The translations under genes were made by a program, and so were the position numbers. The notes under the pieces are model-generated. The model saw only the letters and a list, made by a program, of their open reading frames with translations, made no database searches and was not told the origin of the DNA. Below, piece after piece: positions 1 through 35,292 of a DNA stretch of 35,797 bases (position 1 is its first letter; each line of letters starts with the position of its first letter). This DNA comes from Rotaria sordida (lineage: Eukaryota). The stretch spans positions 1 to 35,797 of the forward strand of contig CAJNOH010001581.1 in assembly GCA_905250005.1 (NCBI GenBank). The letters are read 5' to 3'.

Positions 1-193
1 TGTAGGTGTGGGTGCGGGTGTGGGTGTGCGTGTGGGTGTGGGTGTGGGTGTGGATGTGGGTGTGGGTGTGGGTGTGGGTAACTCTTGTATAGCTGTCCAC
101 ACCCACACCCATACCCATACCCACACCCCACACCCACACCCTCATCCATGTCCACACCCACACCCTCATCCATGTCCACACCCACACCCATAT
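1..193. repeat. Head-to-head telomere-like repeat pair. A (TGTGGG)n G-strand tract at 1-82, a 15-bp spacer and a (CCCACA)n C-strand tract at 98-190, running off the window start. The C-side carries a roughly 30-bp higher-order unit 'cacaccctcatccatgtccacaccca' twice.
   Basis: Direct reading shows GGGTGT hexamers followed by ACACCC hexamers. The G- and C-tracts are reverse complements of each other, so the locus is a hairpin palindrome. Confidence 0.9.
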
Positions 194-2375
194 GAGATTG
201 ACAGCTAATTGTAAAGGCTTCAGTGGTAGGTACATTTGGATATAACGATTCTATATCAAAGCTGATCATTAATTCATTATTTCTCGTTAATGTTTTGTTC
301 ACAATTTTGGCAAATTAAAATGGCTCCTTCACATATGAAAAGACTTTCTTTCTCATATTAGCAAGAAATCCTGCGAGTTTATAATTTAAACCATTATACC
401 TTGCAATTATTGTTCTTAATGTGCAGTTGGCTTTATGTGCCTTCATTGTACAATAAAGCACTGGAATTGAGTTATCCGAGACAAATTATTCATCCTATTC
501 TTTTATAATTTTCTTATTTTTCAATAATTTGAGCATTCTGCTATTGATTTATTTTTTCTTCTTTTACTGATTCATCATTTTCTATCTTACTTAACTTCTT
601 TGGATCTTGCAAAATTTTTTACTTTATCTACATAATCACTTTTGCTCATGCATACTACTGCATTACCTTTGTCAGCTCGTAATATAACTAACGATTTGTG
701 CATTTTTTAGTTCTTTTTTTAATGCAATTCGTTCTTCATCACTTAAATTTGATTACATGATGGTTTCCAAGAGATGTTTCTCTTCTCTGACTCATCTTTG
801 GTTTTTATTAAGGCATATTCAATTTCTGTTTGTATGTTGAGAGGTTCCATGACGTTCTCTTCTATGTGAAATTTCCAACTTCTGCTTAGTAATTTCAATT
901 GTGAAATACTAAGAAGTTTTGACAATAAATTATAAACTAATTTGTCCAGAAGAGAAAAGGAGCTCGTGTATGATCATCTACAGCACTAAGTAACAGAAAT
1001 TTTAACCTCATGTAAATTCTTGGCTTTAGCTATTTAAGCTTGTTTTTTTTTTCATGTACATGAGATTTAATTCTTTAACGACGATGAGGTGCAAATGTGT
1101 TGAAAAATGCATCAATTGCAATACGATTCAATTCTTTTCTTAATTTAAGTGGATTTCTTTGTTTTTCTGAGTATTCAATAAAGTAATTCACGTTAAAATT
1201 TCTTCACTTGAAGAGATGAAACAAGATGTTTATTTGCTAACTTAAATCTGAGAAATTCACGAGTTACGCCGTACACAAGACATACATGTAAAAGTTTAAT
1301 ATCACACTGAGTTTTTGCTAATTTCATTGTTAATCTCTCGACATGTTTGAATCTTCTTAAAGCACATTCACCATACTTTCTTCGGATGTAATTAATTAAG
1401 TTGGAGTTGTAAATAGAATTTTTAGTAAACCGAACGATAAAATGAAAAATATGAAATTTTTTATTTCTTTATTTAGGAGCTTTCGACACTGTTTATATAA
1501 TTATCAGTTTAAAGAAAAAGATTTTACAATAGAAGATATTTATATAGATTGAAATAAAGTCCAAAGTCTAATGAATCATTACAACTCAAATTTACGCGTA
1601 TGCAAATATCAGTGTATTTTTTTTCTCATTGCAACAACACGGAATACAAAGCTAAGTGAAAAAAAGAGGAAGAATATATGAAGAACGAGACACATGTGAT
1701 GATAAGCATATCGATGAAAAAATGACTGCCTACGTAATGAAAAAGTGATGCTTCGTTGATTCATGTAAACATACATTGATGAGAAAAAAAACCAGTAATG
1801 TTGTCAGTGATAAATACAAGGTAAAATCGATTGGAAGCACACAAAAAAATCTATACACTCTAGTGTCACCTAGCACGTAAGTATATTTAGTTTCTAACAT
1901 TAGTATACTAGTAATAAAATTAAAGTTAAAAGTAAAGAGTAGCTACAAACAAGAAAAAACCAGTTGAACATAGACACGTGACATTCTGATGACCTTTTTG
2001 ATGATATAGACGTACCAAAAGAGCTATTTGAATATCAATATACTGAATTAAAATCTAAGATTGAAATATGAAAGCAAAAAGTCCTTATGCACAAAATAGG
2101 AGAAGTGTCCTGGATTTTTCACAAAAGACAGCCTTTTCACTTTTCTGTATAAACATCAATCAAAGAGTGCAGCGATTGAATGAATTCCATCGATTGGCAT
2201 GCTTGTCTTTCTGGAAAAAGGCTCTCAAAAAATCAACTCAAAAAACGCTCTCATGAAGAAAGTATTCGGGCAGATAAAGTCGAGTCGATTTTGATCTTAT
2301 TTTTGGGTAATATACAGTGAAAAATTTTATCAATTACAATTGATTAAAATTTCAAAATCCTATATGTAATGAAAA

Positions 2376-2696: not shown

Positions 2697-2937
2697 ATTT
2701 TTTCCTTTGTTTTCCTTTTTTCCTGCATAAGTTGGTTCATTTTACTTTCTTTACTTCTTATGCATGCCTTATGTAAGTACTTCAGAGTGTCACATAAACA
2801 GTAAAAGCAAAATCCAAAAAAAATGCATCTTTATAGGTTGGAAAAATGAAGTAATTCTTTTCAACAATAAATACGCAGTAAAATCGATTGTAAACACACA
2901 ACTTGTATAGTCTAGAATCGAGTACGTAGATGGCTGC

Positions 2938-3487
2938 GCTGATGCAAATACAACTTGTATCGGCCCCTCGAGAGCTTCTCATGTATTCCGTCCTAATCCT
3001 TCCACGCTGCAAAGCTATCCACATCCACCCTCACGTATCGGCATGTATCCGCTTGTATCGGACCTGTATATAGTCATAGCGTCGTATATACCCCTGAAAA
3101 GCCTAGAATTCACGAAATCTTGTATGGGATGTATCGAGGTGTATTGCCTTGTATCGCCACGTATCGATACAAGCCGACGCACACCAATCGCTATGTATCG
3201 AACCTATGTATAGACATGCCGTGGTATATACCCTAAAAAGCCTACAATTCACCAAAGCATGTATTGCCTTATATCGGCTTGTATCGATACATGGCGGTAC
3301 ATGATTTCGTGAATTCTAGGTTTTTCAGGGATATATACCTCGGTATGGCTATACATAGGTCCGATACAAGCGGATACATGCCGATACGTGAGGGTGGATG
3401 TGGATAGCTTTGCGGCGTGCAAGGATTAGGATGGAATACATGAGAAGCTCTCGAGGGGCCGATACAAGTTGTATTTGTATCGGCGCA
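2938..3487. mobile_element. Near-perfect palindrome (foldback or MITE-like) of about 550 bp, rich in GTATCG/CGATAC motifs, with nested internal inverted and direct repeats
   Basis: 2945-3100 is the reverse complement of 3300-3480; for example 'caaatacaacttgtatcggcccctcgagag' pairs with 'ctctcgaggggccgatacaagttgtatttg'. The inner segment 3100-3320 is also self-complementary ('gaattcacgaaat'/'atttcgtgaattc'). It contains an internal roughly 29-bp direct repeat ('cccctgaaaagcctagaattcacgaaatc' / 'ccctaaaaagcctacaattcaccaaagc'). No ORF is present. Confidence 0.75.
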
Positions 3488-3939
3488 CCCCTCTTATAAT
3501 GTGACTTTGTGGTAATTTATTATCTAGAAACATGAGTAATCCAGCATCTTACTATATTAGCTTTTCGACTTTTATGAGAAAACACTCATCGGTAGCTGGC
3601 ATCGGTAACATCCGCTTGGTTACTGCAAAATAAAAGCAGTTGTGATTTCTTTTCTATGAAAATTGCTGGCTCTGAATAAATGAAGTGCTAAATAATATCG
3701 CATTTATTGGTTAAAACTTTTCAATCTTTCCTTCATTGAGTGTGATTTGCAGAGAAAAAACGCCTTAGCTAACGAGGTAGAAAAATATCTATGAATTTTA
3801 GACAGCAGAATATTGAATACATATTATACTCTTTCTATATAAAAAAATTAATCTGAAAGAATGTTTGTAAATTCAATGAAGTGGATCTGATTCTAAACTT
3901 TTAGAAATATTTTCGCGTAATATTAATCACTCGATTATC

Positions 3940-4611
3940 ATGGCCAGTTACGTATGCAACGAGACTAATAAATTAGTTCGCGTGGTATTGCTTGATAAAT
4001 CCGGTAAACACAGTACTCGAATAGTACCGCCACAAGAAACAGTAAGTTTTCAAACAACATCGTCTGGTTTCAATACTTTTTCACTTTACAAACTGTTACC
4101 TGGAAACAACGATTTTGAGCCATCATCATGCGCAGACTATACTTGTCCTGCAGGCACTACATTGACTATTCAAGAAACAGAAACTTACTTGCAGTTCGTA
4201 CCATCTAAATATACACCAACATGGAAACAAAATTTTATTCATGATTTGGTAATTGGGTGTGTGTACAGTAATAATAGATTGCCTGGTGAAGCTGCTCGTG
4301 CCACCTCGGGATTGGACCCGGCGGCTGTGGGCATGGCTGAAACTAGAATACATAATCTTACCGATGAAATAGCTCGAGTGGTTCTTACTGATGCAAATAT
4401 GAGAAGAAGCGATCACATATTTAAACCTCAAGAGGTGTTTCGTTTTAGGTCAAAAAAGGGTTCAACTACAGTATCACTTTTTCGAAGATCAGAAGATAAT
4501 AATGGTTTTGAACAAACATCATGTGCGAACTCTAGTTATAATGGAGGTCAATCGTATGAAATCAAAAAAACATGTGGTCACTTCGAGTTTGTCCCTAATA
4601 TTATACCATAA
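3940..4611 (+). CDS. Intronless hypothetical protein of 223 aa built from two homologous half-domains of about 80 aa. Each half ends in a '...TSCA..x..G...E..FEFVP' / 'LQFVP' motif.
   Basis: Single ATG-initiated ORF at 3940..4611. Its halves align internally: VRVVLLDKSG...CADYTCPAGTT..ETYLQFVP against ARVVLTDANM...CANSSYNGGQSYEIKKTCGHFEFVP. A GC-rich patch at about 4280-4340 stands out from the AT-rich surroundings. I recognise no family. Confidence 0.55.
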   Translation: MASYVCNETNKLVRVVLLDKSGKHSTRIVPPQETVSFQTTSSGFNTFSLYKLLPGNNDFEPSSCADYTCPAGTTLTIQETETYLQFVPSKYTPTWKQNFIHDLVIGCVYSNNRLPGEAARATSGLDPAAVGMAETRIHNLTDEIARVVLTDANMRRSDHIFKPQEVFRFRSKKGSTTVSLFRRSEDNNGFEQTSCANSSYNGGQSYEIKKTCGHFEFVPNIIP

Positions 4612-5566
4612 CTAATACGGAGTATTTTTCTGTATCGTTTTTCTTAATAAATATCACTCTCACAAAATGTGACCAAATATGATATATGTGAACAGAAATA
4701 CGACAACGAATGTTAGAAGCAACAAATCCATATGAATCTATATGAAAGGCATTCATCAGCCAGAACTTTGATATCATCATCATAAATACAACCATAGAGA
4801 ATTGAGACTGAACTCTGATTATCTAACTATCGGGATATCATTTTGCTTTAGTTTCATATTGAATTCGACATGATATTTATCTTGGACGTCGGTTTCGATG
4901 CTGTTTTCATTATTTTATTCAAAAATAATTTCAAAAAACGAGCCACTTAAAATAATCCATAAAATAAAGAAAGCTTTTAACAATTGAATAGTTTATGTTA
5001 ACTGATCAATGCTGTTTACACTGCTATGAGATATTCTACGATAGTTTTATTACGGCATGAAGCTATCTTGTGTAGGTGTCGGTGGGTGTGTTTAAAGAAA
5101 AAAGTTGAATTAAACATAAAAATACAAAGTAGAATATATCAGTTACTACGACCGGTTTCGTCCTTGCAGAAGGGACTCATCAAGTAGCATAGAGGATATA
5201 AAATTCTAAAAGTATTATTAAATCTAATTCAAAGTCTGTTATAAATAAATAGATATATGAATATTTGATCTCCTCGATAGCTAAGAGTGATTCACTTCAT
5301 CCTCACTCCAGAAAGGCAATAGAAGTTTATATGAAGTTGAGTTTCTTAGTTATCTCTATCAAATATTTTGACTTAACTCATTGGGAGACTACCGTTGGTA
5401 TATCGGCTTCAATCCCTAGAGAAACGAGTTTGCCGAAAAACATATATCTGTTTATTAAAACGAAGACTAAAACTGCTGATCTTTCGAGCGTTTTCGCCCT
5501 TATCCTATTCACGAAAGGAATAAGATTAGAAAATTGCAACCGAAAGGCCCGGTTTGGCTGTTAATT

Positions 5567-5827
5567 TGGGTGTGTGGGTGTGGGTGTGGGTGTGAGGGTG
5601 TGGTTGTGGGTGCGGGTGTGGGTATGAGGGTGTGGGGGTGGGGGTGGGGGTGGGTGTGGATCTTCTCTTCACCCACACCCACTCCCACACCCGCATCCAC
5701 ACCCACACTGACACCCACACCCACACCCGCATCCACACCCACACTGACACCCACACCCACACCCACTTCCACACCCGCATCCACACCCACACTGACACCC
5801 ATACCCACACCCACACCCCACCCTCAT
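5567..5827. repeat. Large head-to-head telomere-like repeat block. A degenerate G-tract at 5567-5660, an 11-bp spacer, and a C-tract at 5671-5827 organised as 3-4 copies of a roughly 36-bp higher-order unit 'cacccacacccacacccgcatccacacccacactga'.
   Basis: Direct reading. The 36-bp periodicity is also visible as a 12-aa periodicity ([12 protein letters not shown]) in the artefactual ORF 5509..5814. Confidence 0.9.
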
Positions 5828-6739
5828 CTCGTTGTCAAAATATCCCTTATGGGGTAATTTGTCCAAATACTCTTAGTTCATATTTTATTTTATTGATGGC
5901 TTTTCCATTTGTTCTATGTGTAATCAAGGCCTCCTTTATCATTCATCATATCCAGTCTGTTTCATTCGCCATAGTTTTCACTCGAGAAAATTCGAATGTG
6001 TATCTATAATCAGTGGTATGCTTTGATAATTCAAAATTTAAGTCGTAATTTATAATCGCTTTCTAATGTTCAGACATTCTTTGACCGCGAAATCAGTCAA
6101 CTTCTCCAACATACACGAAATCAGAATGTCCATAACGAATTTTGTAAGCAAGTTTCTTCAATCTTCTAGCTTCATCATAGCCCTTCAGAAGTCACAGAAA
6201 GTTTTTCTTTCGAATGAAATAGCTCTTGGACTCCAGATGAAACTGCACATTTGATAGTAGCTTAGTGAAAAATTTTCTCAGTCGAGAAACAAAACTTACC
6301 GTTTAGTATCCATATTGCGAAATGTTAAAGAAAGTAGTCTATTTCGATACGGTTGGAATAGTTAGTTGGTTAAGAGGTTTAACACTAAAATTTCCATCTC
6401 AAGTGCCATGGCAGATGACATGAGAGGGGTAACCACTTGCTTTCAAAGTCTCTGTCAGTCTCTTTTTCTCTTCTTTAGCTAATTTGAATGAGTAGTTTAG
6501 CCTCTCAATGCAAACTGTGAATGTTTTCACCAAAACTACTTTGTACTTTCTGATTTAATTCGAGTCCTAAGTACGATAGTGGTCTATATATGCAGGTTTC
6601 CTATATAGTGTTGATATGTATTCGATGATCTTTCATTTTGTCAGCACGTCAAAGAAAAGGAGATGGGTGTTTGTCTGAAATTCAATTGTGAACTTTAATT
6701 CTGGATGCCAATGATTTATTCTATCCATTTATTCAAGTA

Positions 6740-7095
6740 TTTTATTGTGTTCGATATCGAAGTCAGCAATGATATCATCAACATATCAATACCAAATCTT
6801 GAGTGGCTTTTTCGAAAAACGTTGAAGTTTCTCCTTCAGTTTTAATATAACAATATTCACAAGAATTGGCGCAAGGGAACTTCTCATGGCAACACCATTC
6901 ACTTGTTTATACTTTTTGTCAAGAAATCTAAATCGAAGGTTTCATACAGCCAAATTCATTAAGTCTTACATTTGACTTCTATACTATGTCATATCTGATG
7001 TAGTATTCTGTTTATAGATCATTTAAAGAACATATTCAATTGTTTCAGTCACTGATATATTTGTAAACAAGGATTCCACATCAGATGAAACCATA
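6740..7095 (-). mobile_element. Decayed retroelement reverse-transcriptase fragment with in-frame stops
   Basis: The minus-strand translation contains the RT motifs 'SSDVESLFTNISVTETIEYVL' (RC of about 7027-7090), 'SSLAPILVNIVILKLKEK' (RC of about 6853-6890) and 'YVDDIIADFD' (YxDD catalytic box, RC of about 6755-6790). The motifs are in the correct N-to-C order but are interrupted by stop codons. The family cannot be determined by eye; a Penelope-like/Athena or non-LTR origin is a guess. Confidence 0.5.
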
Positions 7096-9984
7096 GTCTG
7101 AGTCATGAAAGATCTAAACGCTCGGATTCTCGTCACAAAATGATACGAATCTTTTATGAATGAGGTTGGTTGTTGAGTTCGATGAGAGACAAGGAATGAT
7201 GCTATATATTTGGATAATTCGTTGATAATTGTATGCTTTGATAGAAGAAATTGTGAGCCTTTAGTTGTTCACACATGACAGACAGCGATGCGAATATGGA
7301 ACGGAGTCGCCAAAAAAAAAGTGACTAATACATTATTTTATATAATTGCCTAAGGACCTTGTTCATTTCTATTTCTTTCTTTTCCATTGAAGACGAACTA
7401 GGAAAGAAGCGACATTGCTTCCCGTTAAGAATTGCTCTTCCTATGCTCTCATAATCAATCTTATTGAAAACAATTATACAGTTTCCCGTGCTGCTTTATA
7501 AATTACAGTAGGCGCGGTGCATTTAAGAGTTCATCGGGTACGTTCAGTATCTTCTTCTTGCAAACGCTTTTCATCAATTGCTGAGACGCAGAAAAAATGT
7601 GTCGATAGAGAGTACAAAAGACGGATAGGTGATACGTGGGTAGTAGTTGGAACGAATTTCGTTCAACGTCAGTTTGAAAATCTACGAAATTGATTATTCT
7701 TTGTTTCATGGAAAAATCCTAGACATGTGCAAGAAGTCTTTCCTCAACAGAAGATAAGATGTATGAGGATACATTATGAGCAAGTTTGTAAATATTGGAC
7801 GTCTAGTTCTCACTAGCAGGTCCATGAGCAAGTCTCTCGAATTTAATCTCATCTATCATCGAAGCACGATTATGTTCTGTCATAGTCTTTTATCAAAGAA
7901 CAAGATTGGTCGAGTAGAAATCAACCGTAGGCACTTTCTTTTCCAACCAGTCTATACACGATTTTAGTTCTTGATTGAGGCAAATAGTCACCTTGTAACG
8001 TACTTCATATTCGTGTTGTAGACATTGACGTTTGAAAAGCAGAGCTTGCTCAGCCAAAATATAAGATTGTTTCAACGCATGAAGGTGAATAATAGATTGA
8101 ACTAGACTATACATTAACCAAGTGTAGGGATTCTCAAAGCCTAATTAATAGGAACTGAGCAGTCTTCAGCTGTCAGACGATATTGTCCTTTTCTTAGCGT
8201 ATACCGAAATGATTCATACAACTGCAGACTTGTGTTCAAAAACCTAAATGCGAAAGCAATACTTTCAGTAGATAGAGCTCGCGCAACTCATTCAAAGAAC
8301 ATAAAAAAATGTTTGAACCACAGAGGTCTCCCACACTCATTTTTCGACTAGTGAGAAGATTGACACAAATCGTGCATAAATGTCAAACACGAGATCCTCA
8401 TATTCTAACATAAGAAAATTGAACGGCGCATTTTCTCGTTATGATAAGAGTACGTGCGTAAAAACATAGTTGTTTGAGGTTGTTTGTGGAATGGCAAGAC
8501 AATGGACATGGAAACCACGCTGATTCAACTACTTTTATGTTGGTCGAATAAACCACATAAGCTTTAGTAGGCTATTGGTAGATGGTTGGATCTTTTTTAT
8601 GAGTCCACAATTATATCAAGTATTTTATTTTCTGAGAGAAAGCGTCGTTCACTAAAATATTTCTGTCTGCTGTCTGCTGAAGGCTATCAGAGAGTAGCTC
8701 TACTCCAGCTATGGAATAAACTGTATTTTTTAAAAGAAGCTTGACTAAAAAGTAATCGTAGATAGATAATGCAAATTTGATGCTGGTATACATATTTTTG
8801 TTTTCATTTTTATAATTATTCAAAAAAAACCTTGGCCACGGACAATCATAATCTGTCAATCTGGCTCATGGGTTAGTTTTTCTTTGAAATCAATAATTTT
8901 TTTGAATAAGGTCCTTTACGTGTAATAAAATTCCTCAGAAGATATTAGTTATTGTGAAATACAAACTTGACTTCTACGTTTTTTTTTCTTTTGTATTTTT
9001 AATGAAGAAAAAATTCATCAAAGTGGCGTTTTAGAGAATCTGAATTCCGTTTTCCTTCTTTCTGAGCAGCAGAGCTATGTTAATGAAATTATGAACATGA
9101 ATCTTTTTCTATCTTTTTGTTCGTTGATAGTAATCAGAAAGTATCCAATTGATAATTAGAGGAAAATAAGCAATCTTTTGCGAAAAAGCATCAGAGCATA
9201 CTAAGAACTTTGAAGACAAATGAAGACATGGCAAATGGCGACCATCCATCTTCAGAGTAATAGAATATTGAGGGCCACTTTATGCTTGAACTTACTTCAA
9301 TCGCCAGAATCACGATACCAGCGTATTCATTCGCAAGCAGCGTTAAGAATCAGTGTGGATTCTGGGCTTAGATGTGACTGTGTAGTTCCTTTAATAAATG
9401 ACCAGCTCTAGTAGACTTTAAAAAGATATCAATGGCTTACTCAAAGGTGTTTTTCTAGCAATATAGATTACATAGTTCATATTTTCTTACGATTTTCATA
9501 ATTTCAGATGGTTTTCAGGATATTAAATAAAGATTTCGATTGCAACGAATATCATTGGTTGAATGATTTTTGTGTTTATTTTTCAAAGAAAGGATTTCGT
9601 TTCCAGTGAATTGTCGAAACTCCCCGCATGGCATTCAATAAGATTGTAATTTTCGAGCCATTGTCAACATTGATATTGAGGCGACAAAGAGGTACTTATC
9701 CAGAATCGGTTAGCTGATAAAGTGGTCTGAATTACACTCTGCCATACTTTATTTAACCGATCGAAATTCGACAGAATGATCTAACGAGGGAACCTCTTCA
9801 AGTACTAAAAAGCATTTGACCTCAAATTTTGTCCACAGATAGGAGATGTATATACTAGAAAAAGTCTAAAAGGATATCGACCCAAGTAGCGATTTGGCTG
9901 AGATAGCAGCGTTTTACTATAATTTTTCTGTAGAACCTCACGTTGCTAGTAAAATTAAAGTTTTGAATTTTGATCTGAAACTTT

Positions 9985-10930
9985 GTCTACACGGTTGGAA
10001 AAAATATTATTCCAGGGGGTAGCGCTATAATTTCAAATAGAAGACATAATAAATTTTATATCAAATGAAAGCTCGTTAAAAATGGGGTTTATTGGTATTA
10101 AATAGTGAGGGTTATGAAAACCTTTTAATGTCGGGCTTAATAAATTTTCAGAGATTTTATACTTTTTTTGGGATGGAAACTTAAAGTACTAGTGATTCAA
10201 GAATGGAGTAAAATGTTTTTCTTGAATATTTTTACACGGTTCGATAGAGCTCGTCAAGCTCTATAAAACTGTATACATTAAAAAAATTTTAAGACACTTT
10301 TTTTGCGATAAAAAATTCAAAAAACTATTTGGAAAATCTTAGAAAACATGAAAAAAATTCATATTTTTCATGTGGAAGAACAACACTTACTTTTTCAATA
10401 AAAGTAGCTTTTTTCATTGTTTTTACTCCGTCAGGCGTTTCGAAACATACTCATTAGACGCAGCTTTTCACACTGCATCGAACGAGTATATTTCGAGACG
10501 TCTGAGGTAGTAAAAACAATGAAAAAAGCTACTTTTATTGAAAAATTGAGCGTGTTTCTTCAATTTGAAAAAAAAAAGAGTTTTTAAATATTTTTGAAGT
10601 TTCCCGAGTAGTTTTTTGAACTTTTTATCTCAAAAAGATGCCTCAAAAAATTTTTAACATGCACAGTTTTGTAGAGCTCAACGAGGTCTATCAAACCATG
10701 TAAAAATATTCAAGAAAAAAAATTGACTTCGTTTTTGAATCAGTGGCACCTTGATTTTCCACCCCAAAAAAATATAAAATTTCTGAAAACTTCTTAAGTT
10801 TGACATTAGAAAGTTTTTACAAGCCTCACTATTTAGTATCAATAAACCCCATTTTTGACGAGCTTTCATTTGATATAAAATTCATTATGTCTTCTATTTG
10901 AAATTATAGCGTTACCCCCCTGGAATAATA
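9985..10930. mobile_element. Near-perfect palindrome of about 950 bp (foldback or long-TIR non-autonomous DNA element). It is flanked by TA dinucleotides, and a telomere-like repeat abuts its right end.
   Basis: The terminal sequence 'acacggttggaaaaaatattattccagggggtagcgctataatttc...' at 9985-10110 is the reverse complement of 10828-10930 ('...gaaattatagcgttaccccccctggaataatattttttccaaccgtgta'). The inner segments are also mutually complementary, with a centre near 10470. The flanks read ..tgtcTA|CACGG ... CCGTG|TAcatcc. There is no ORF of 64 aa or more inside. Confidence 0.8.
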
Positions 10931-10936
10931 TTTTTT

Positions 10937-10955
10937 CCAACCGTGTACATCCACA
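10937..10955. repeat. Short C-strand telomere-like tract (acatccacacccacaccc) immediately after the palindromic element
   Basis: Read directly from the sequence. Confidence 0.7.
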
Positions 10956-11354
10956 CCCACACCCTTTATGAATAGTTATTGCACAATAAGCGTACTATTT
11001 AGATGAAATCCATTTTGTGTTTCTTTTTCACTTTCATTCTGCTTTTTTTTTCGAATGTCGCAGTAGAATAAAAACACGACAAGTGAAGTCAACAACAACG
11101 GCATTCTCCGATAGTTTGAAAAAAAATTTGGGTTTTTTTAAATTAAACATTTACAATGACACATGAACATTGGTATAGTATTTCTTTATTTTTTTTTATT
11201 TAATATCTACTGATTTTCTAGTGCTCAATTCTATTCTGATTGGCAAACAACGGTTCATTGTTCATTTGAAAATGTGTTTACTCCAACGATTGCTCATATA
11301 GTCGGTGCTAATCTTCAAAATATATTGGGTATTAAACACTTTAGACCAGATGCA

Positions 11355-17237: not shown

Positions 17238-17307
17238 GATGTAGGGTGAGTGTGGATGCCGGAGTGTACTAGTTCTCTTTCGGTACACCCACACCCACAT
17301 CCACATC
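17238..17307. repeat. Mini head-to-head telomere-like hairpin (gatgtagggtgagtgtggatgccggagtgtac / loop / gtacacccacacccacatccacatc)
   Basis: Direct reading shows imperfect reverse-complementary arms of about 25 nt with a 12-nt loop. Confidence 0.75.
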
Positions 17308-17896
17308 TTCCTTTTTAAATTTGCATTATTAGTCATTCTTTTTATCTAAAAAAATAAAAGTATTGAGTTTTTTATATTTGAAGAATCTTAGACGTTTTAG
17401 GCATAGTTTCTTTCCGTAGAAATAAAATCGAGAATAATTGAGATGATACTAAATGATTATAAAAGTAGTTCGATGTAATTGTAACAAATCTAGCAGATAA
17501 ATCTCAAATAATAGACGCATCACTATTGGCAGTGACAATTTAACGAATCTCTTGAGATATAAGCCGTCGAGATAACAGAGGGTAGATTGAACAAGAAAAA
17601 AAAATCACATATATAACACTAAAGATGTCACGGAGTCCGTGTCAACCCACCTTTTAATTTTTTCCCTGTAAGAGCTATCAAAGAAATTTCATATGGTCTT
17701 CGTGCATTGTTAGGAGAATAGCGATTAAAGAAACGATCAATCTGCAAACGATAAGTATTAATTTAGCTAAAGGCAAAAATCAGCATTGTGGGTCCGGTTA
17801 GATCCCCAAACAGTGTACAAGGGTTAATTATATCCTGACTTCGAATGAGATGGTTCGCTTTCCTGTTAATTAAAAACAAAATGAAAAATGAAAATG

Positions 17897-17955
17897 CAGG
17901 GTGTGGATGGGTGTGATTCTTCTTTTAACTCACACCTATACCCACACCCACCTCC
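17897..17955. repeat. Mini head-to-head telomere-like hairpin (gcagggtgtggatgggtgtga / 16-nt loop / tcacacctatacccacacccacctcc)
   Basis: Read directly from the sequence. Confidence 0.75.
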
Positions 17956-19102
17956 AAATCAAACAAAATCAAATTTAAAAATCGGGCTCTATTACGTCCT
18001 AGCCTTAAGGACACTCTACAACCTGAAAACCACCCGGGCTTGGTAGCTCGTATCCTTATTATGAAATTCTTGCCTGCGTAAAGGGTAATGAATTAACTAG
18101 AACTTGTGCATTTCGTTGAGATTTGGGGGAGATATTTTAACCATAAGCTATTCTAGTCAAGATCAACATTTCCTGAAATTTTGGTTGAAATCGGACGAAA
18201 AATAACAAAGTTCGCTTCTGAGGGGGCCCCCCTTAAACAAAAACTACACAATTAAAACAGGCTTTATTTTATAGATTGTAGAGGTTTTTACGCTGCATCT
18301 TGTGGCATATTTTGTTTTTAAAGTAAACGTACTTAATCATGAAAAAAAGAAATACAAAAACTGGCTATTCACATTGTAGGACACTCGATATTATTCATAA
18401 AGTAATTATAAATTAAACTTTCCATTCAATTTACCGCAAAATTCATAAAAATCTATATTAAGTAAGTCTCATGAGAGTGCAGACGAGATATTTGTGTTAT
18501 GGATATCTGTGTGAAATAAAGTAACCTAACAGTATGTTTCAATTCAATGCACCAGAAATAATTTCTGACTCAAAGGGTTAAATCCTATGTCTATTTACGT
18601 TTAGAGTATATCTATTGTCGTAGCAGAAACTGGCAAACGAGACAAATTTAACACTATTTTAGAAGGAAATACGAATTACATTTTTCTTTTATATATTATA
18701 TTTGAAACTATTCGTGCAGAAATACTTAAGGTTTAAAATTTGTCTCAGTTTTATGTGATGATATTAAACAAATCAACATAGTATCGATGATAAACGAATA
18801 CATCATATAATGAAAGATTTCCTTTATTGTGACCTATCGTTTTAATATCTTGTTGATCTTCAGAAAAGATGTTGTATCATTTGAGACAACTGAAAAACAT
18901 TTTCTATTTAATGATTTTCTTAAACAGTAAAATATAATAATGAATTTCTTTTCTCTTTTTAATGAACAGAATTTGCAACGTTTATTATTCTTTAATTTGA
19001 ATTATCTTTGATTATTCATTTTTCAATATATTAATATAAATTAAGAGAATTTTTTGTATCTATATAATCACACAAAACATTTTGCGAAAAGTATTCCATC
19101 AT

Positions 19103-19137
19103 AGGGTGTGGGTGCAAGTGTGTCTGAGTGTGCGAGT
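19103..19137. repeat. Degenerate telomere-like G-tract (agggtgtgggtgcaagtgtgtctgagtgtgcgagt)
   Basis: Direct reading. The downstream complementarity is weak. Confidence 0.5.
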
Positions 19138-19876
19138 ACATAAAGAGAACACTCACAGCCTGCATCTCGACGCACTCTTTCAAACAAAAAAAAATTTAAA
19201 TATATTGACAGAGTCTGGACCGAGAGTTCCTTGTCAGAAGATGAAAAAATCATAAACCCAGAAAAAATAAGGTATCGAAGAAAAACCGATGCAGTTTTTG
19301 AAAGAACAGAAGAGGAGCTATCTTCCCATGCATTTATCTCAATTTCGAAATTTCTGACGAAAATTGACTTTTTTTTAGAAGACCTTTAAACATATCTTCA
19401 TAGTTGTTTAAGTGCTATGTTGAGATTTTTCTTCAACCATTCAGTTGGAAGAATACTATACTATTTGCGTCTCTGAAGCAAGAAGTTTTCCTGTGACAAT
19501 AATACATTTTGAATGATCAAAGGTTGCGAGCATAGGTGAGAGATGAGTACAATATTCCCATCAAGATCCACACTCTTATGATTTTCATGACATGGGACAC
19601 TTAGCGACGACATTAATGATGAAATGTATTAACATTGAGCTTCATGACTTGTGAAAATTTCCATGGTATACCGACGATTTCATCAGCTTGTGCAATAACT
19701 CAACGTGCAGAACTGTAAAGAAAAATATTAATAACATTTGCCTACTTCTTGTTTTTTCTCTTTTCCTTTGCATGGAGTAACGCGTAACCATATTAGTCAT
19801 CACACGATTATTTTGAAAATAGGTCATAGAATGAATACGTTCGTAGATTGGTTCATAAATCATTGATTATTTTCAG

Positions 19877-22800
19877 ATGAAACAAGCTACTACCTCTACT
19901 TCATTATTATCACCATTCAATGGCAAAACGATTGTACTCGAACTTGGCCATGAAATAGGTTTCAAAGCTAAACAAGAATTGATCAACTATTTACGAGAAC
20001 AGCAAGCACATATTTCATATATTTTGACAGCTAGTGTATGTTCTCCTTTTATTCCATTAAACATGTGATTAAAGTTGACTTATTTAGACTGATTATGTTT
20101 TGGCTATGAATAATGTAGATAGCTACAAGATACGTCGTGCCAAACAGCTTGGCTTACCAATAGTCAATGTTGAATATGTATACAGATGTCGTTGTTTGCC
20201 ACCTGGTCAAACATCAATTGATATTAGTAAATTTATTATCAAGTCAGCTGAAGATCAAGAAAATTTTACAAAAACCGGCACTATTTCCATGGAAGGTATT
20301 AGTAGTTCTTTTAAAAATCATGTCAGACATCCTTGTTCATTAGAATGTCGAGTAAATGTGACTAAAATCAATAAATTCGATTTGACTAAAATCAAATTAT
20401 GGAATTCGGACGATGTCGATTTGCCTGGTTTCGATGAGTTGACACATTGTGAGATTGGCAAATGGGCCATTTTCAAAGTAGATTTGTATTAATTTCTAAC
20501 TATTGTTCTCTTATATTTCTACTGTTCATAATAGGAAACCAACGATAATTCAAATGTATTTTTTGTTCTTGAACTTCAAGTTATTCCAGAACAGTACTAC
20601 GATCGAACAACGAGTGATTATCGACTACGATTTCGATATGAAAAACAGACTATTATTGGTGAAGAACCACAACACGATAAAAAAATTTCGATACAATATG
20701 CATTCAGTGATGATCCAAACGAACAACAACAATTGTTTGCATCGTACTATTATCGAGTGGCTAAAATGTCACGTATAACACGAATTCGTGAGATGTTACC
20801 TAATAAATTAGGATCAAAACTATTGTTACGTGTAAGTAAATAACATTGACAAAGAGAAACTATTTTCCAAAAGAAGATCAATTATTTTTAGTCTTTATTT
20901 ACTCATCGTATCGATACACAGATACTTGATGAGAACGTATGTCAATTGATTGAATCGATTTGGTTAGAATCGATTGGTGATCTGAATAAAATGTTGAGCA
21001 TATCACCCGAATCGATCACTCTCAAAACGGTATACAAATTCATTTTGTTACATTCATATTAGTTTGTGCTCTAAACAACTAAATAGATCATTGAAGCCGA
21101 AGCTGCACTGCTTGAACTCAAATCAACCAACAATTCTGCTGCTGCACTTCGTTTCTATTCACTTATACCACATCGACAAGAATACAATATCGATCTCATC
21201 AAGAATCGTCGAGCGTTAACCGAAAAAATAGACTTATGTCAAGTATGTCTATTTCTTTTTATTTGTTTTGTTTGATCTTTTACCTGTTCAGATGCTTCGA
21301 GATATGCTTACTGTCAACGAACTGACCAATTGGAATGTTAAAGCACCAATCGAAGCTAAATATCGAGCATTGAAATGTTATATTGAAACAGTGACTAGTT
21401 CAACACCCGAATTTAAGAATATTGCTAACATCATTCAATCGTCGACAGATAGGTGAGAAAATTTAATATTCAATTTCATGATAATAGCTTATTTGTTTTT
21501 GTTCATTAGCGATGAACAAATTGTCATTCACAATGTATTCAGCGTGGCTAAACAGACAGATGCACTCAATTTTTGTACAACATTATCTCATCAACGACAA
21601 CTATTTCATGGATCGAAATATGTCAATTTTCTTGGGATTCTTTCACGGTAAAATATTCATTTAATCCTCTAGACAATATTATGTGTACATTTAGTGGTTT
21701 GGTCATGCCTAAAATGGTAGTAGAAGACTTAGGTGTTGTACGTACTGATATTGGTTGTCTCGGTTATGGGATTTACTTTTCTGATTCTGCTTCGACTTCT
21801 TTAAAGTATACAACAACAAGCATAGTACGACCAGGTCGTCGTTTGTTATGCATTTGTCAAGTAGCACTTGGCGAAACAGCTAACTATTATTCATTTTCAC
21901 CGACTCTCACCAAACCTCCGGATGGTTTTCATAGTACGCATGGAGTTAAACGAACAGAAGATAATCATTCAATGTTTACTGTAAGTAGTTAGTGTTATTG
22001 TGACCTATTAAAGTATATTTTCAAAAATTTTGGTGAATTTCGTAGAACCAGCGAACCAAATTTTTTCGTCAATACCAGTGACTAAGCATTCATTTATGTC
22101 AGAGTTCATTGGTAGAGCTTGGAAAATCCCTTGACTATTGAATTCATAATTAATAGTGCAATCATAAATTTGATATTTATCGAAATAGGATAATGAATAT
22201 GCGATCTATCAACTCGATCAACAACGTTTACTCTACATTGTGGAAGTTTCATGGGCACCGAAAGATAATCTCAATATCGAATTAGAACGATTACCAATTA
22301 TTCATCATCAACAGCATGCATTACAATTGAGTGAACATGGTAATGATGATTCTTTTTATTAGATTAGAATTCAATTATCAGATTATCTGTTACATTCTAG
22401 TCGAAGTTCCCATGACAATCGATAATGAAATCATTGAAATAGCTGAACAAGACTATGGTTTAATATGTCCATCATCAGGAAAACTTGTACCACTTAAATC
22501 ATTTCATATTCGTGCTCAAATTGTTGATGTTACAGTTGAAGTAATTATATCTATGTTTCCATTGAAGTCAAATACTAATTCATCATATTTCTATTTAATG
22601 AAAAAGGTTGTTCTCTATCAAGTCTATCACAATATGAGTTCGAAACCGATTGAAGCTAAATATGTATTTCCTCTTGATGAAAATTCAACTGTATGTGGTT
22701 TTGAAGCACATATCAACAATAGAATTATCAAAGGTGTCGTTAAAGAAAAAGAACAAGCCAAACGAGAGTATCGAGAAGCAATTCAAAAGGGTCATGGCGC

Positions 22801-25800
22801 CTATTTAATGCATCAAGAAGAAGCTCAAGTGTTCAGCGTTGCTGTTGGTAATTTGCCAGCGAACAATGAAGTTATCATCAAAATAACCTATGTTGCCGAA
22901 TTAGAAATCGAAAATGGCGATATTATTTTTCGTCTTCCAGCCAAAATGACTTCATGGCAATCGAAAAAAGCGATCGAAAACAAAGATCAAACAATTCTAC
23001 GATCTATTGGTATTGTCGATGAAAAAGTTGAATTCAGTTTCAAAGCATCGATTCGAATGCCATACAAAATAGTGAAATTATTTTCGCCAACACATCGTCT
23101 TCGTCGAAAGTTAACTGATTGTATAGCCATGATTGAACTTGTCGATAATATCTTACTTGATCAAGATTTTATTCTTTCGATCGCACTCAACAGTCCTAAT
23201 TTACCTCGAACATCAAATGAAACATTGTCATTGGATGACAACAGTGGAACAACTGACACATCGAACAATCATAATTCTCAAGCATGTATGCTTACCTTTT
23301 ATCCACGATTCGAAACATTGACGAATTCGAACGAACAAATTGAAATTATTTTCATTATTGATGTATCAAATTCAATGGATGGTAGTCATGTACAACAAGC
23401 TAAACAGTTAACTCATTTGTTTCTTACTAATTTGAAAGTTGCCGATGAGAATACATATTTTAATGTAATCACTTTTGGATCAGGTAATAATGTTATATTT
23501 AACAGCGTTATTTTTACTATTCAAATTGGAACTATTTAGATAATGATGAATGTTTTCCTATATCAACACCAATCACAAAAGAAAATCTTGATAAAGCCAA
23601 ACATTTTGTTTTGGTTAGTAGTTTTTCTTCAATCTTCATTTTGTATATAAAAGTATTCTAGCATTCTCTTGTCCATCGTGGTAATACGGATCTATTTGCT
23701 GTTCTTCATCGTTATTCATTATTACCATCGTCATTATCATCGAAATTCGGTCGTCAATTCATTCTTCTATCCGATGGACATATTCACGATCTGAATTCGA
23801 TTCTTGCTCTACTCAAATATCGACCGACTATGCGTCGTGATCGTTTATTTACATGTTCAGTTGGTAATATTGCAAACAAACATGGTTTGAAACAGTTAGC
23901 TAATGGAGCAAATGGAGGTGGTCTAACAACGATATTCGATTCGAACTATCGATCAAAATGGAAAACAAAAGTATTGAACATTCTTGAACAGATCCGACAA
24001 CCTTGTGTTACAAGTATATCTATCGATTGGCATGGTCATTTGGATGAAGAACAAAAATTCAATATGCAAGCACCGAAAATGATTCGATCTTTGTTCAATG
24101 GAATGCGACTTACTGTTTATCGATTCATAGAAAATTGTCACAAGGCAACATTGACGGCTACTATTGATGAGCAAGAATTTGTTACGACTGTATTTAGTAG
24201 TACGATGACAACGACCAGAGGGCGTATTCTACACTGTCTAACTACTCGAGCGATCATCGATGATTATGACAACGGACTATTGGATGTAGATGAGAGCGAA
24301 AACGAATTGATCAAAGCTCAATATCGACGAGATCTCATCGATCTCAGCATCAAATATTCTGTTGTCAGTGCATACACTAGTTTTGTTGCCATCGAAGAAC
24401 GTGATATCAAAACGGATATAAAAACTCTTCAACCAGGTTAGTAAAAAAAGTTGAGATTTTATTGACTAAAGTCATGGGTTGATTAGTAACAGAATAGCAC
24501 AAGAGTAAAAATTTATCTACATCACTATTGAGACATGTACTTTCTGTTATAGGTGTTCGTCTGCCTGAAGTTATGCTGAAGCATGATGTGGACTTACTAC
24601 CATACATGGGATGGGATGGTGATATATCAAACTTGACTTTAATCAAACATAAATTGTTCGATGCGCGTATTTCACTCGAATGTGCATCGATTCAGGGCAA
24701 AAAAGAAACAGTTGCTGATGTTGAAAAACTTTGTCAAAAAATTTCCTATCGAGCAGGTGGTGATGCAAAATTTGGTATGATGATGACTATCATACGCACA
24801 TATCGTTATTCATTGAATGAATACGATAATGCAGATGAACTCGAAGACAAAATGCGAAAGGGTATGTTAATTGATCTAGGATCAAAATTTAAATATATCG
24901 AATTTGAAAAATGAATAGATATAATGACCGAAATGATTAGTGCAACGACAGAAGAACGGCAAGCATTACAACAAAAATGTCTGGCGAACAATTTGATAAT
25001 CACAAATAACGAATTGTAAGTGAAAGAAAGGAAAGAAACATTCAAAAAAAAATGTTGGTGTATTCGTTCTCTTACAGTGAATCAATGGCTAAATACGATG
25101 GTAAGAAGGGAATTTGATCATTCTACTTTGGAAACCTCAATCGAGAGAAAGAAAGTGATTCTATAATTTAGACCAAAATGAAAAAATAAGAATATGCTAT
25201 TCATCATCAAAGCAATGGACAAAAACGAATCTCATGATTATTTTGGTTTCTGTATATCATAGCATCTGAGCAATTCGATTAAGACAGGATAGAGTAAAAA
25301 GTACTTTTTCTATTCAACTTTTAATCGTAGATTTATGTGTCCTCTTTCTATAACGTAGTATAATTTCAACAGAAGGGATCCAAGAAAAATCTTAATAATT
25401 GCATAACATGTCCACACTACGTATATTGATCTTCGACAAACTTACGAGGAAAGGTCACGAACTGATAAATCGCTTTTTAAATTTTAGTCATGCCAATTTG
25501 TAGAGCTTGTTGAGTTATTAACTAATATGATAAACATTCAGACCAACAAATGGGGCTGTAGAGTAAATTTCTAATAATCTAAGTTTCTATTAACCTATCC
25601 ATACCCCTATAGAGCTCCTAAGCACTCCTATAGGACTACTATACGGTATGGACAGATTAATTGAAATTTAGATTATCAGAAATTTACTCTACAGCTGCAT
25701 TGTTGGTTCGAATGACTATTATATCAGTTAATAACTCAACAGGCTCTACAAATTGGCATGACTAAAATTTAAAAAGCGATTTATCAGTTCGTGGCCTTCC

Positions 25801-35153: not shown

Positions 35154-35292
35154 ATGGGTGTGGGTGGGTGTGGGTGTGGGTGGGTGTGGGTGTGGGTGTA
35201 GAAACGGAGACGTCGCCACCCACACCCACCCACACTCTGTACAGTGTGAATATTTAGTCGATCCACAGAGATTCACACCCACACTTATACCC
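35154..35292. repeat. Head-to-head telomere-like hairpin. G-tract at 35154-35199, loop 'gaaacggagacgtcgc', C-tract at 35217-35236, and a second short C-tract at 35272-35292.
   Basis: Read directly from the sequence. Confidence 0.85.

What the first reader, a model, noticed from the sequence alone, without database searches (positions are those of the whole stretch)
2938..3487. 550-bp GC-richer palindrome built from GTATCG/CGATAC motifs
This second long palindrome is unrelated in sequence to the other two. It contains nested inverted and direct repeats and a dense recurrence of 'tgtatcg(g/a)' and 'cgatac' motifs, at least 15 copies. It lies between a telomeric hairpin at 2551-2696 and an intronless gene at 3940. 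It could be a foldback element, a hairpin-RNA locus or a protein-binding array.
Basis: seen in the sequence. Interest (0 to 1): 0.55.

Follow-up and report, generated by a model that had tools for sequence, protein, structure and literature searches.

The report
Decaying foldback palindrome in rotifer subtelomere
The 570-bp palindrome is real and sits in a bdelloid rotifer chromosome-end region, but comparison with a related rotifer shows it is an old inverted repeat drifting neutrally, most likely a dead foldback-type mobile element and not a working hairpin or protein-binding array.

Summary
The arms at 2928-3124 and 3298-3494 are 197 nt long and 92% complementary, with 173 nt between them. 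The region holds 14 exact GTATCG/CGATAC hexamers (24 with one mismatch), mostly in 10-bp phase. It is a GC island: 46.6% against 29.9% in both flanks.

The window is bdelloid rotifer subtelomere, shown by TGTGGG repeats and by genes closest to Rotaria. An orthologous copy of the palindrome plus the downstream 223-aa gene exists in Rotaria sp. Silwood2, so it is not an assembly artefact and it predates that species split.

The four arms evolve independently:
- 39 substitutions are confined to one arm of one species.
- 9 differences are arm-specific and shared by both species.
- Only 1 site shows the compensatory (species-shared) pattern.

Motif bases are no better conserved than other bases (11% against 13% mismatched). 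The Rotaria copy carries a 943-bp MITE inside one arm, and its arms are only 79% alike.

No other copy, target-site duplication, transposase or known RNA family was found, but no rotifer genome could be searched by DNA.

Best reading (0.45): a fossil foldback/MITE-like element with iteron-bearing arms. The main rival (0.3) is a repair-generated inverted duplication. A maintained function looks unlikely. Interest is low.

The parts
2928..3124 (.). Left arm of the palindrome (197 nt)
   Evidence: Inverted repeat I1, 92% complementary to 3298-3494. Orthologous arm in Rotaria sp. Silwood2 L001 is 84-87% identical.
3298..3494 (.). Right arm of the palindrome (197 nt)
   Evidence: It is 92% identical to the Rotaria orthologue in the pairwise alignment and 89% in the four-arm alignment, and is the slowest-changing of the four arms (2 and 10 single-arm changes).
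3125..3297 (.). Central 173 nt: a second, directly repeated copy of the inner arm segment plus two spacer-less sub-centres
   Evidence: Direct repeats D4/D5 at 139-140 nt spacing, and inverted repeats I3, I10, I11. Against Rotaria this part has 40 gap columns, with gaps of about 20 nt falling in the 10-bp arrays.
3054..3125 (+). Segment s, copy 1 (inner part of the left arm)
   Evidence: Three paralogous copies are 83-87% alike. Copies s (86%) and s2 (90%) are each closest to their own Rotaria orthologue, so the triplication predates the species split; the s' pair scores 83%.
3194..3264 (+). Segment s2, the tandem (direct) copy of s
3298..3368 (-). Segment s', the inverted copy of s (inner part of the right arm)
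3035..3064 (+). 10-bp phased array GTATCGGCAT GTATCCGCTT GTATCGGACC (left arm)
   Evidence: Motif starts at 3035, 3045 and 3055. The Rotaria copy has one or two extra units here.
3122..3170 (+). 10-bp phased array of five units ending in sub-centre 1, GTATCGATAC (3161-3170)
   Evidence: Motif starts at 3122, 3131, 3141, 3151 and 3161, with the reverse motif at 3165. It is two units shorter in Rotaria.
3261..3304 (.). Array of three + units, sub-centre 2 GTATCGATAC (3281-3290, the symmetry point of the outer arms), then reverse units
   Evidence: Motif starts at 3261, 3271 and 3281 (+), and at 3285 and 3295 (-); I11.
3362..3391 (-). 10-bp phased array in the right arm, mirror image of 3035-3064
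   Evidence: Reverse motifs at 3362, 3372 and 3382; TRF period 10 at 3361-3387.
2939..2964 (.). Terminal mini inverted repeat of the left arm (degenerate: CTGATGC-N11-GTATCGGC)
   Evidence: Read from the sequence; conserved in all four arms.
3458..3484 (.). Terminal mini inverted repeat of the right arm (perfect: GCCGATAC-AAGTTGTATTT-GTATCGGC)
   Evidence: Motifs at 3460 (-) and 3477 (+).
2697..2927 (+). AT-rich leader between the telomeric-repeat junction and the palindrome; part of the block shared with Rotaria
   Evidence: 91% identical to L001 5636-5867. 29.9% GC. 2842-2901 has an 80% paralogue at 1786-1845.
3495..3939 (+). AT-rich spacer between the palindrome and the ORF, with a TATA-like box at about 3835
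   Evidence: 91% identical to Rotaria; 29.9% GC.
3940..4611 (+). 223-aa ORF with two tandem ~100-aa all-beta domains; neighbour of the palindrome, not shown to be functionally linked
   Evidence: 80% aa identity to P0001 of Rotaria sp. Silwood2. dN/dS 1.19, dS 0.09. No Pfam family. Distant single-domain relatives exist. AF2 pLDDT 46.

Best explanation
This is the fossil of a foldback-type, non-autonomous DNA element. It is a roughly 570-bp block made almost entirely of two long inverted arms. The arms carry short 10-bp-phased arrays of a GTATCG(G/C)C iteron, an inverted pair of that iteron at each outer tip, and a spacer-less centre at GTATC|GATAC.

The inferred history is as follows. The block entered or arose in an AT-rich subtelomeric stretch upstream of an orphan two-domain gene. 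It then gained a 140-nt internal tandem duplication. It later expanded and contracted its 10-bp arrays by slippage. All the large events happened before the window species and Rotaria sp. Silwood2 diverged.

In a live element of this kind the iterons would be the binding sites of the mobilising transposase, and the arms would pair or be synapsed during excision. That step is inferred from how foldback, hAT and CACTA subterminal repeats work; it is not shown here.

What is shown is the present state. Neither the arm pairing nor the motifs are under detectable selection, and the element is decaying at about the neutral rate of its surroundings.
For: Anatomy: 197-nt arms at 92%, 10-bp phased subrepeats, terminal mini inverted repeats and a spacer-less centre.

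Discrete block: 46.6% GC against 29.9% in both flanks, with the switch within about 50 bp of each arm end.

Real and old: an orthologous copy with the same architecture lies in Rotaria sp. Silwood2. Nine arm-specific differences are shared by both species. Two of the three copies of segment s clearly pair with their own orthologue (86% and 90%; the third pair scores 83%).

Neutral decay: single-arm changes number WL 8, WR 2, RL 19 and RR 10, against 1 site with the compensatory pattern. The Rotaria arms are only 79% alike. The palindrome is 84-92% identical between species, against 90-92% for the leader, spacer, ORF and 3' flank. Motif bases are 8/74 mismatched against 62/474 elsewhere.

Context: a 943-bp foldback MITE with a 7/8-matching 8-bp target duplication sits inside the Rotaria left arm, so such elements move in these genomes. 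Two further unrelated palindromes lie in the same window. The window is a subtelomeric mosaic with many interstitial TGTGGG tracts (PMC7943196).

Non-coding: no ORF wholly inside the palindrome exceeds 57 aa. No Rfam family matches.
Against: No second copy was found anywhere. The places searched were the window, other bdelloid loci totalling about 250 kb and highly redundant, JGI metagenome contigs, which do contain rotifer DNA, viral and prokaryotic collections, and 5.8 billion predicted proteins queried with a six-frame translation.

There is no convincing target-site duplication. The flanks are ...GAGTACGT | TATAATGT...; at most a shifted TA is shared, which is uninformative in AT-rich DNA. 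No empty site exists. No transposase is nearby.

In both species the palindrome sits in the same 2-kb block, so there is no direct evidence that it ever moved on its own.

The subrepeats occupy only part of each arm, unlike classical Drosophila FB arms.
Confidence: 0.45

Rival explanations
1. This is a repair-generated inverted duplication and was never a mobile element. A double-strand break or a stalled fork occurred next to the short perfect palindrome GTATCGATAC, inside a pre-existing GC-richer segment that carried a 10-bp minisatellite. The 3' end folded back, or the polymerase switched template, and copied about 240 nt in inverted orientation. A later slippage event added the 140-nt tandem copy. 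The product has drifted since.
For: The symmetry point is a spacer-less 10-bp perfect palindrome (3281-3290), as expected for snap-back priming. The region is full of healed breaks: the shared block ends at 2697 directly against telomeric repeats in the window, whereas Rotaria continues with other sequence. Neotelomere formation at breaks is reported for bdelloids (PMC13564844). Tandem duplication and 10-bp indels show a slippage-prone tract. It is single-copy wherever a search was possible, and it has no target-site duplication.
Against: Both outer ends coincide with a sharp GC drop to the same 29.9%. The iteron forms a purpose-like inverted pair at each tip and also occurs in separate clusters along the arm. 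That pattern is more typical of transposon ends than of a random duplicated segment. No species with a single arm is known.
Confidence: 0.3
2. This is a functional cis-element: a clustered binding array for a sequence-specific protein, acting as promoter, enhancer or boundary for the gene 445 bp downstream. Both sub-centres contain TATCGATA, and every motif contains CGATA. From my own knowledge, these are the Drosophila DRE and BEAF-32 sites recognised by BED-finger proteins.
For: There are 24 motif-like sites in 10-bp phase, which places them on one helical face. The motif count is retained in Rotaria (26 with one mismatch or fewer, 10 exact). The position upstream of a gene is kept in both species. 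The gene-proximal right arm changes less than the left (12 against 27 single-arm changes).
Against: Motif bases are not more conserved than non-motif bases (10.8% against 13.1% mismatched). Individual sites are lost in Rotaria (GTATCG to CTATCG, GTTTCG, GTGTCC). One arm tolerates a 943-bp insertion. The gene itself shows dN/dS 1.19. The distant paralogue locus in Rotaria sp. Silwood1 has no such array. A TATA-like box lies much closer to the ATG.
Confidence: 0.1
3. This is a hairpin-RNA (endo-siRNA or piRNA precursor) locus. It would be transcribed through both arms to give a long double-stranded stem that is diced into small RNAs.
For: It has a very stable fold (-241 kcal/mol, z = -33). From my own knowledge, bdelloid subtelomeres are rich in silencing targets. 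An RdRP gene lies in the same window.
Against: Only 1 of the variable sites shows the compensatory pattern, against 39 uncompensated single-arm changes. The Rotaria stem is down to 79% and is interrupted by a MITE. No target with similarity to the arms was found anywhere. No Rfam family reaches its gathering score. There are no transcription data.
Confidence: 0.08

Closest known systems
Foldback (FB-type) transposable elements and long-TIR MITEs. Foldback-like elements are mentioned for bdelloids in PMC2861651. Details of the Drosophila FB, FARE and SoFT families are from my own knowledge.
   Same: It is almost entirely two long inverted arms. The arms contain short tandem subrepeats (10 bp here; 10/20/31 bp in Drosophila FB). 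Subrepeat copy number varies between copies and species. It has no coding capacity and lies in TE-rich chromosome ends.
   Different: Only one (orthologous) locus is known. There is no target-site duplication. The subrepeats fill only short clusters of 2-5 units and not the whole arm. No autonomous partner is known.
Subterminal transposase-binding repeats of hAT and CACTA elements (Ac AAACGG hexamers, En/Spm 12-mers), and the BED-finger sites DRE TATCGATA and BEAF CGATA (own knowledge)
   Same: A hexamer is reiterated in direct and inverted orientation within about 250 bp of each end. The core CGATA/TATCGATA is identical to known BED-finger sites, and hAT transposases carry BED fingers.
   Different: No 8-bp TSD and no canonical hAT terminal sequence could be shown. 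No binding was tested. The resemblance is to a short motif and could be coincidence.
Palindromes formed by snap-back or template-switch repair at short inverted repeats, e.g. Tetrahymena rDNA palindrome formation and yeast inverted duplications (own knowledge)
   Same: It has a spacer-less symmetry centre at a short perfect palindrome. It lies in a break-prone, telomere-healed region. It is single-copy.
   Different: Those palindromes are usually much longer and extend to a chromosome end or a second break. Here both arms stop at about 240 nt, at a sharp compositional boundary.
The 943-bp foldback MITE at L001 6022-6964 and the window palindromes at 10015-10919 and 25440-25809
   Same: They have the same general shape (long inverted arms, non-coding) and the same genomic neighbourhood. 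The L001 element proves recent insertion activity of this class.
   Different: No sequence similarity was detected. Those elements are AT-rich and lack GTATCG iterons. The L001 MITE has a clear target duplication, which this palindrome lacks.

Membership tests
Foldback / long-TIR MITE transposons | Element consists mainly of two long terminal inverted repeats with little or no unique centre | tested here: met
   197-nt arms at 92%. The 173-nt middle is itself made of copies of arm sequence.
Foldback / long-TIR MITE transposons | Arms built of short tandem subrepeats | tested here: inconclusive
   10-bp phased units occur in clusters of 2-5 but cover only about a third of each arm.
Foldback / long-TIR MITE transposons | Target-site duplication flanking the element | tested here: not met
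   The flanks GAGTACGT / TATAATGT are the same in both species and are not a direct repeat. Decay of a short TSD cannot be excluded.
Foldback / long-TIR MITE transposons | Multiple dispersed copies, or presence/absence polymorphism (empty sites) | tested here: inconclusive
   None in the window, in other bdelloid loci (about 250 kb, highly redundant), in metagenome, viral or prokaryotic scans, or in protein space. No complete rotifer genome could be searched by DNA, so this is not conclusive.
hAT-type non-autonomous element | 8-bp TSD, short conserved terminal motif, subterminal hexamer repeats | tested here: inconclusive
   Hexamer repeats are present. The termini (T/A)AGAKGG are only loosely hAT-like. 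The 8-bp flanks match at 3 of 8 positions.
Hairpin-RNA / miRNA-like locus | Stem maintained by selection (compensatory changes), match to an RNA family, evidence of transcription | tested here: not met
   1 compensatory-pattern site against 39 single-arm changes. Rfam gives nothing at gathering score, and only generic sub-threshold hairpin hits. Transcription is not testable with these tools.
Protein-binding iteron array (DRE/BEAF-like cluster, origin iterons) | Motif positions conserved above background between species | tested here: not met
   8/74 motif bases are mismatched against 62/474 non-motif bases.
Protein-binding iteron array (DRE/BEAF-like cluster, origin iterons) | Demonstrated binding by a cognate protein | not testable with these tools
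   The adjacent ORF has no recognisable DNA-binding, Rep or transposase domain.
Athena / Terminon telomeric retroelement unit | Penelope-like RT, hammerhead ribozyme next to C-rich repeats, co-oriented ORFs | tested here: not met
   No RT was found among the window's large ORFs by Pfam. No hammerhead was found by Rfam. An RT gene lies about 2 kb from the Rotaria copy but is not part of the shared block.
Assembly or cloning artefact palindrome | Arms identical, absent from independent assemblies | tested here: not met
   The arms differ at 8%. The same architecture is present in two Rotaria sp. Silwood2 assemblies with diverged arms.

The most novel reading that the evidence does not exclude
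The palindrome is the only sampled copy of an undescribed bdelloid foldback transposon family. Its ends would be recognised through 10-bp-phased GTATCGGC iterons containing the BED-finger core CGATA/TATCGATA. Alternatively, it is a domesticated iteron cluster that acts as a boundary or promoter element for genes trapped between healed telomeres.
Probability: 0.12. Interest if true: 0.45.

Novelty: new member of a known kind. Interest (0 to 1): 0.2.

Why it matters
It matters little on its own. It is one more decaying inverted-repeat element in the TE-rich, break-and-heal subtelomeres of bdelloid rotifers.

Its modest value is as a dated example. The two-species, four-arm comparison shows that a 200-nt palindrome can persist for roughly 10% sequence divergence in a bdelloid genome. 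It has done so without arm homogenisation, without deletion and without selection. This is a small data point on palindrome stability and on the lack of intra-palindrome gene conversion in an animal famed for DNA-break repair.

If genome-wide searches showed a family with GTATCG iterons, it would define a new foldback family and point to its transposase type.

Tried and rejected
1. 'Empty site' paralogue. Window 1786-1845 resembles the left flank 2842-2901 (80%). However, the similarity stops about 30 nt before the palindrome, and nothing after it matches the right flank or the palindrome (shuffle tests). Rejected.

2. The adjacent ORF as the protein that binds the array (transposase or Rep). 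It has no Pfam family. AF2 gives a low-confidence all-beta model with two domains. Its distant relatives are ~100-aa single-domain proteins of unknown function. A paralogue locus in Rotaria sp. Silwood1 lacks any GTATCG cluster. Rejected.

3. The block 2697-4728 as a recently transferred or mobile unit. Its 9-10% divergence from Rotaria is uniform over coding and non-coding parts (dS 0.09). That is no higher than the 14-16% of a host PARP4-like gene compared with the same species, whose orthology is uncertain. The left edge is a telomere-healed break in the window lineage. There are no TIRs or poly-A-type ends. Rearranged orthology is therefore the simpler reading.

4. Metagenome scan with a specific two-block pattern: 0 hits.

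5. Scan with the phased-iteron pattern: more than 120 hits, none homologous. L017 is a bacterial intergenic 10-bp repeat between polysaccharide and RelA genes. L087 is an unrelated foldback of (GGTATCGAAA)n. These similarities exist by construction of the pattern.

6. Six-frame translation of the palindrome as a protein query, to catch mis-called ORFs on other copies: no hit.

7. Prokaryotic and viral origin of the GC-rich block: 0 hits.

8. Rfam at a permissive E-value: only generic miRNA-hairpin models far below their gathering scores, mostly on the telomeric junction.

9. A sigma-70 promoter and terminator scan is irrelevant for a eukaryote and showed no enrichment.

10. The two PNAS papers (DNA transposons in bdelloids; Athena elements) are not held in the paper library.

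Full report
**What the window is.** The window is AT-rich (33.5% GC). It carries many tracts of the hexamer TGTGGG and its complement. TGTGGG is the bdelloid rotifer telomeric repeat (PMC7943196, citing Gladyshev and Arkhipova 2007). Its genes have introns: an RdRP is split over several ORFs, and there is a PARP/VIT/VWA gene. The genes are closest to Rotaria species. The ORF at 3940-4611 has a single hit among 5.8 billion proteins, an unnamed Rotaria sp. Silwood2 protein at 80% identity. The PARP4-like exon also hits Rotaria and unnamed rotifer-like metagenome proteins. The window is therefore a subtelomeric mosaic of a philodinid bdelloid rotifer.

**Checking the observation.**
- The palindrome is the longest inverted repeat in the window. 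Its arms are at 2928-3124 and 3298-3494 (197 nt, 92% complementary), 173 nt apart.
- The single strand folds at -241 kcal/mol, with z = -33 against shuffles.
- GTATCG/CGATAC occurs 14 times exactly within 2957-3482. Shuffles of the segment give 0.28 copies. With one mismatch there are 24 copies.
- Same-strand spacings are mainly 10 and 20 nt, and TRF finds a period-10 array.
- The block is a sharp GC island: 46.6% against 29.9% in both flanks.
- The enrichment is real but does not reflect many independent events. A few short arrays were multiplied by the duplications described next.

**Anatomy.** Each arm, read from the outside inwards, contains:
- a tip with an inverted pair of the iteron (perfect in the right arm: GCCGATAC-N11-GTATCGGC, 3458-3484);
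- about 70 nt of unique sequence;
- three phased units (3035-3064, mirrored at 3362-3391);
- a 72-nt segment 's';
- a second array of two to five units running into GTATC|GATAC.

The symmetry point of the outer arms is the spacer-less GTATCGATAC at 3281-3290. A tandem duplication of about 140 nt has produced a second copy of s (3194-3264) and a second GTATCGATAC at 3161-3170. The largest ORF wholly inside the palindrome is 57 aa. No Rfam family reaches threshold, and there are no tRNAs.

**The orthologue.** Two Rotaria sp. Silwood2 assemblies carry the gene and, upstream of it, the same palindrome. Window 2698-3071 matches L001 5638-6021 (86%). Window 3067-4728 matches L001 6968-8635 (88%). 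The roughly 950 bp between these in L001 is a separate foldback MITE (6022-6964). It has the TIR CCCCGGAAAGCAAAAGTTAGCCAC and flanks CTATATAT/GTATATAT, that is, an 8-bp target duplication matching at 7 of 8 positions. The palindrome is therefore real, not an assembly artefact, and older than the species split. Homology stops on both sides of the 2-kb block. On the left the window has telomeric repeats directly at 2696/2697, which on the minus strand reads as a broken end healed by telomerase. Rotaria continues there with other sequence. Neotelomere formation at breaks is reported for bdelloids (PMC13564844).

**Is anything conserved by selection?** Identity to Rotaria by segment:

| Segment | Identity to Rotaria |
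|---|---|
| Leader | 91% |
| Left arm | 84% |
| Middle | 85% (40 gap columns; gaps of about 20 nt in the 10-bp arrays) |
| Right arm | 92% |
| Spacer | 91% |
| ORF | 90% |
| 3' flank | 92% |

The ORF has dS 0.09 and dN/dS 1.19. The whole block therefore looks close to neutral, and the palindrome is no better conserved than its surroundings.

In a four-way alignment of the arms, the identities are WL-WR 91%, RL-RR 79%, WL-RL 87% and WR-RR 89% (W and R are the window and Rotaria, L and R the left and right arm). The site patterns are as follows:

| Site pattern | Count |
|---|---|
| Arm-specific, shared by both species | 9 |
| Species-specific, shared by both arms (expected from compensation or arm-to-arm conversion) | 1 |
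| Change in WL only | 8 |
| Change in WR only | 2 |
| Change in RL only | 19 |
| Change in RR only | 10 |

The arms had thus already diverged by about 4.5% before the split. Since then they have evolved independently, with no maintenance of pairing. The three copies of segment s are 83-87% alike; s and s2 are each closest to their own orthologue (86% and 90%), while the s' pair scores 83%. Motif bases are mismatched at 8 of 74 positions, against 62 of 474 for other bases. Individual iterons are lost in Rotaria. These results argue against a maintained hairpin-RNA stem and against a conserved binding array.

**Is it a transposon?** Several points favour this:
- the shape;
- the iteron arrangement, including the inverted pair at each tip;
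- the sharp compositional borders;
- the neighbourhood, where a foldback MITE has inserted into this very element in Rotaria and two other unrelated palindromes lie in the window.

Several points count against it:
- There is no target-site duplication and no empty-site paralogue.
- No further copy was found in the window, in other bdelloid loci (about 250 kb, highly redundant), in JGI metagenome contigs, in viral or prokaryotic collections, or among predicted proteins.

No rotifer genome could be searched at the DNA level, so copy number remains effectively untested. The main rival is a snap-back or template-switch inverted duplication at the short perfect palindrome GTATCGATAC in a break-prone region.

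**The neighbouring gene.** The 223-aa ORF is a tandem pair of ~100-aa beta-rich domains (AF2 pLDDT 46). It has no Pfam family. Its distant relatives are single-domain proteins, one of them from Rotaria sp. Silwood1. That paralogue locus has no GTATCG cluster. Nothing suggests that this gene binds or mobilises the palindrome.

**A lead from memory, not tested.** Both sub-centres contain TATCGATA and every iteron contains CGATA. These are the Drosophila DRE and BEAF-32 sites recognised by BED-finger proteins, a domain also used by hAT transposases. This fits the idea of former transposase-binding iterons, but the match is to a very short motif.

**Verdict.** This is a genuine and structurally elaborate palindrome that is evolutionarily inert.
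- Most likely (0.45): the fossil of a foldback/MITE-like element with iteron-bearing arms.
- Next (0.3): a repair-generated inverted duplication.
- Unlikely: a maintained binding array (0.1) or hairpin-RNA locus (0.08).

It is a new member of a known kind, and interest is low (0.2).

Noticed in passing
window 1-190, 2552-2695, 5572-5823, 35155-35235; shorter or decayed ones at 17250-17310, 17900-17960, 19100-19180; also L001 8791-8887 and L146 869-1028: Junctions of the form (TGTGGG)n - short spacer - (CCCACA)n recur at least eight times, across three species. Six of the eight spacers examined are T/C-rich and contain TCTT (for example ATCTTCTCTT, AACTCTTGTATAGCTGT, GTCTTTCTTACTATCCG). Random end-to-end fusion of telomere-capped fragments would not predict a shared spacer motif. 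Athena/Terminon addition, as I understand it, predicts same-orientation repeats and not head-to-head ones.
   Followed up: partly
L001 6022-6964 (Rotaria sp. Silwood2): A 943-bp AT-rich foldback MITE is inserted in the left arm of the Rotaria copy of the palindrome. Its TIR is CCCCGGAAAGCAAAAGTTAGCCAC, it has internal GATAGAGCT...CTCTATC repeats, and its flanks CTATATAT/GTATATAT form an 8-bp target duplication (7/8), which is hAT-like.
   Followed up: partly
window 9991-10947: A second palindrome has a nested inner palindrome (10300-10636). Its inverted repeat extends past CAGGGGGTAGCGC...GCGTTACCCCCCTG into flanks that are themselves reverse complements (TATTATTC / GAATAATA). It is followed at once by a CA telomeric tract (10950-10965). 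The Rotaria contig L003 matches window 9808-9992 (76%) and then ends.
   Followed up: no
window 25440-25809: A third palindrome (110-nt arms, 90%) has an inner period-16 inverted pair and is unrelated in sequence to the others.
   Followed up: no
window 3940-4611: The orphan two-domain ORF is intact in both species, yet dN/dS is 1.19 at dS 0.09. It is either fast-evolving or barely constrained. Its distant relatives are ~100-aa proteins, several of which begin with MG (e.g. MGQ, MGS).
   Followed up: partly
window 1786-1845 vs 2842-2901: A 60-nt direct repeat (80% identical...TAAATAC..GTAAAATCGATTG.AA.CACACAA) lies just left of the palindrome and again about 1 kb upstream in the previous telomere-bounded fragment. 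Its 3' part also resembles the arm tip (2886-2912 vs 2938-2964, 67%).
   Followed up: partly
window 18235-18358 and 28332-28546: Short sequences are shared at 72-88% with several places in the Rotaria sp. Silwood1 loci L145 and L146, including inverted matches. They are probably small dispersed repeats or MITEs common to philodinid genomes.
   Followed up: no
window 20000-25000 vs L157 7653-12200: The PARP/VIT/VWA gene region is collinear at 80-84% nucleotide identity with an ENA metagenome contig (ctg354810, 263 kb), and at 84-86% with Rotaria sp. Silwood2 L003. L003 carries a ~1.25-kb insertion relative to window 22000-22156.
   Followed up: no
L087 1990-2310 (metagenome contig): An unrelated foldback is made of (GGTATCGAAA)n arrays in inverted orientation around two tandem sub-hairpins. 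This architecture is much like the one studied here. It was found only because the scan pattern demanded phased GTATCG units.
   Followed up: partly
window 5070-5092: A short degenerate TG tract (GTGTAGGTGTCGGTGGGTGTGT) lies inside the 4729-5571 stretch, which has no counterpart in Rotaria. It may be another decayed healed end.
   Followed up: no
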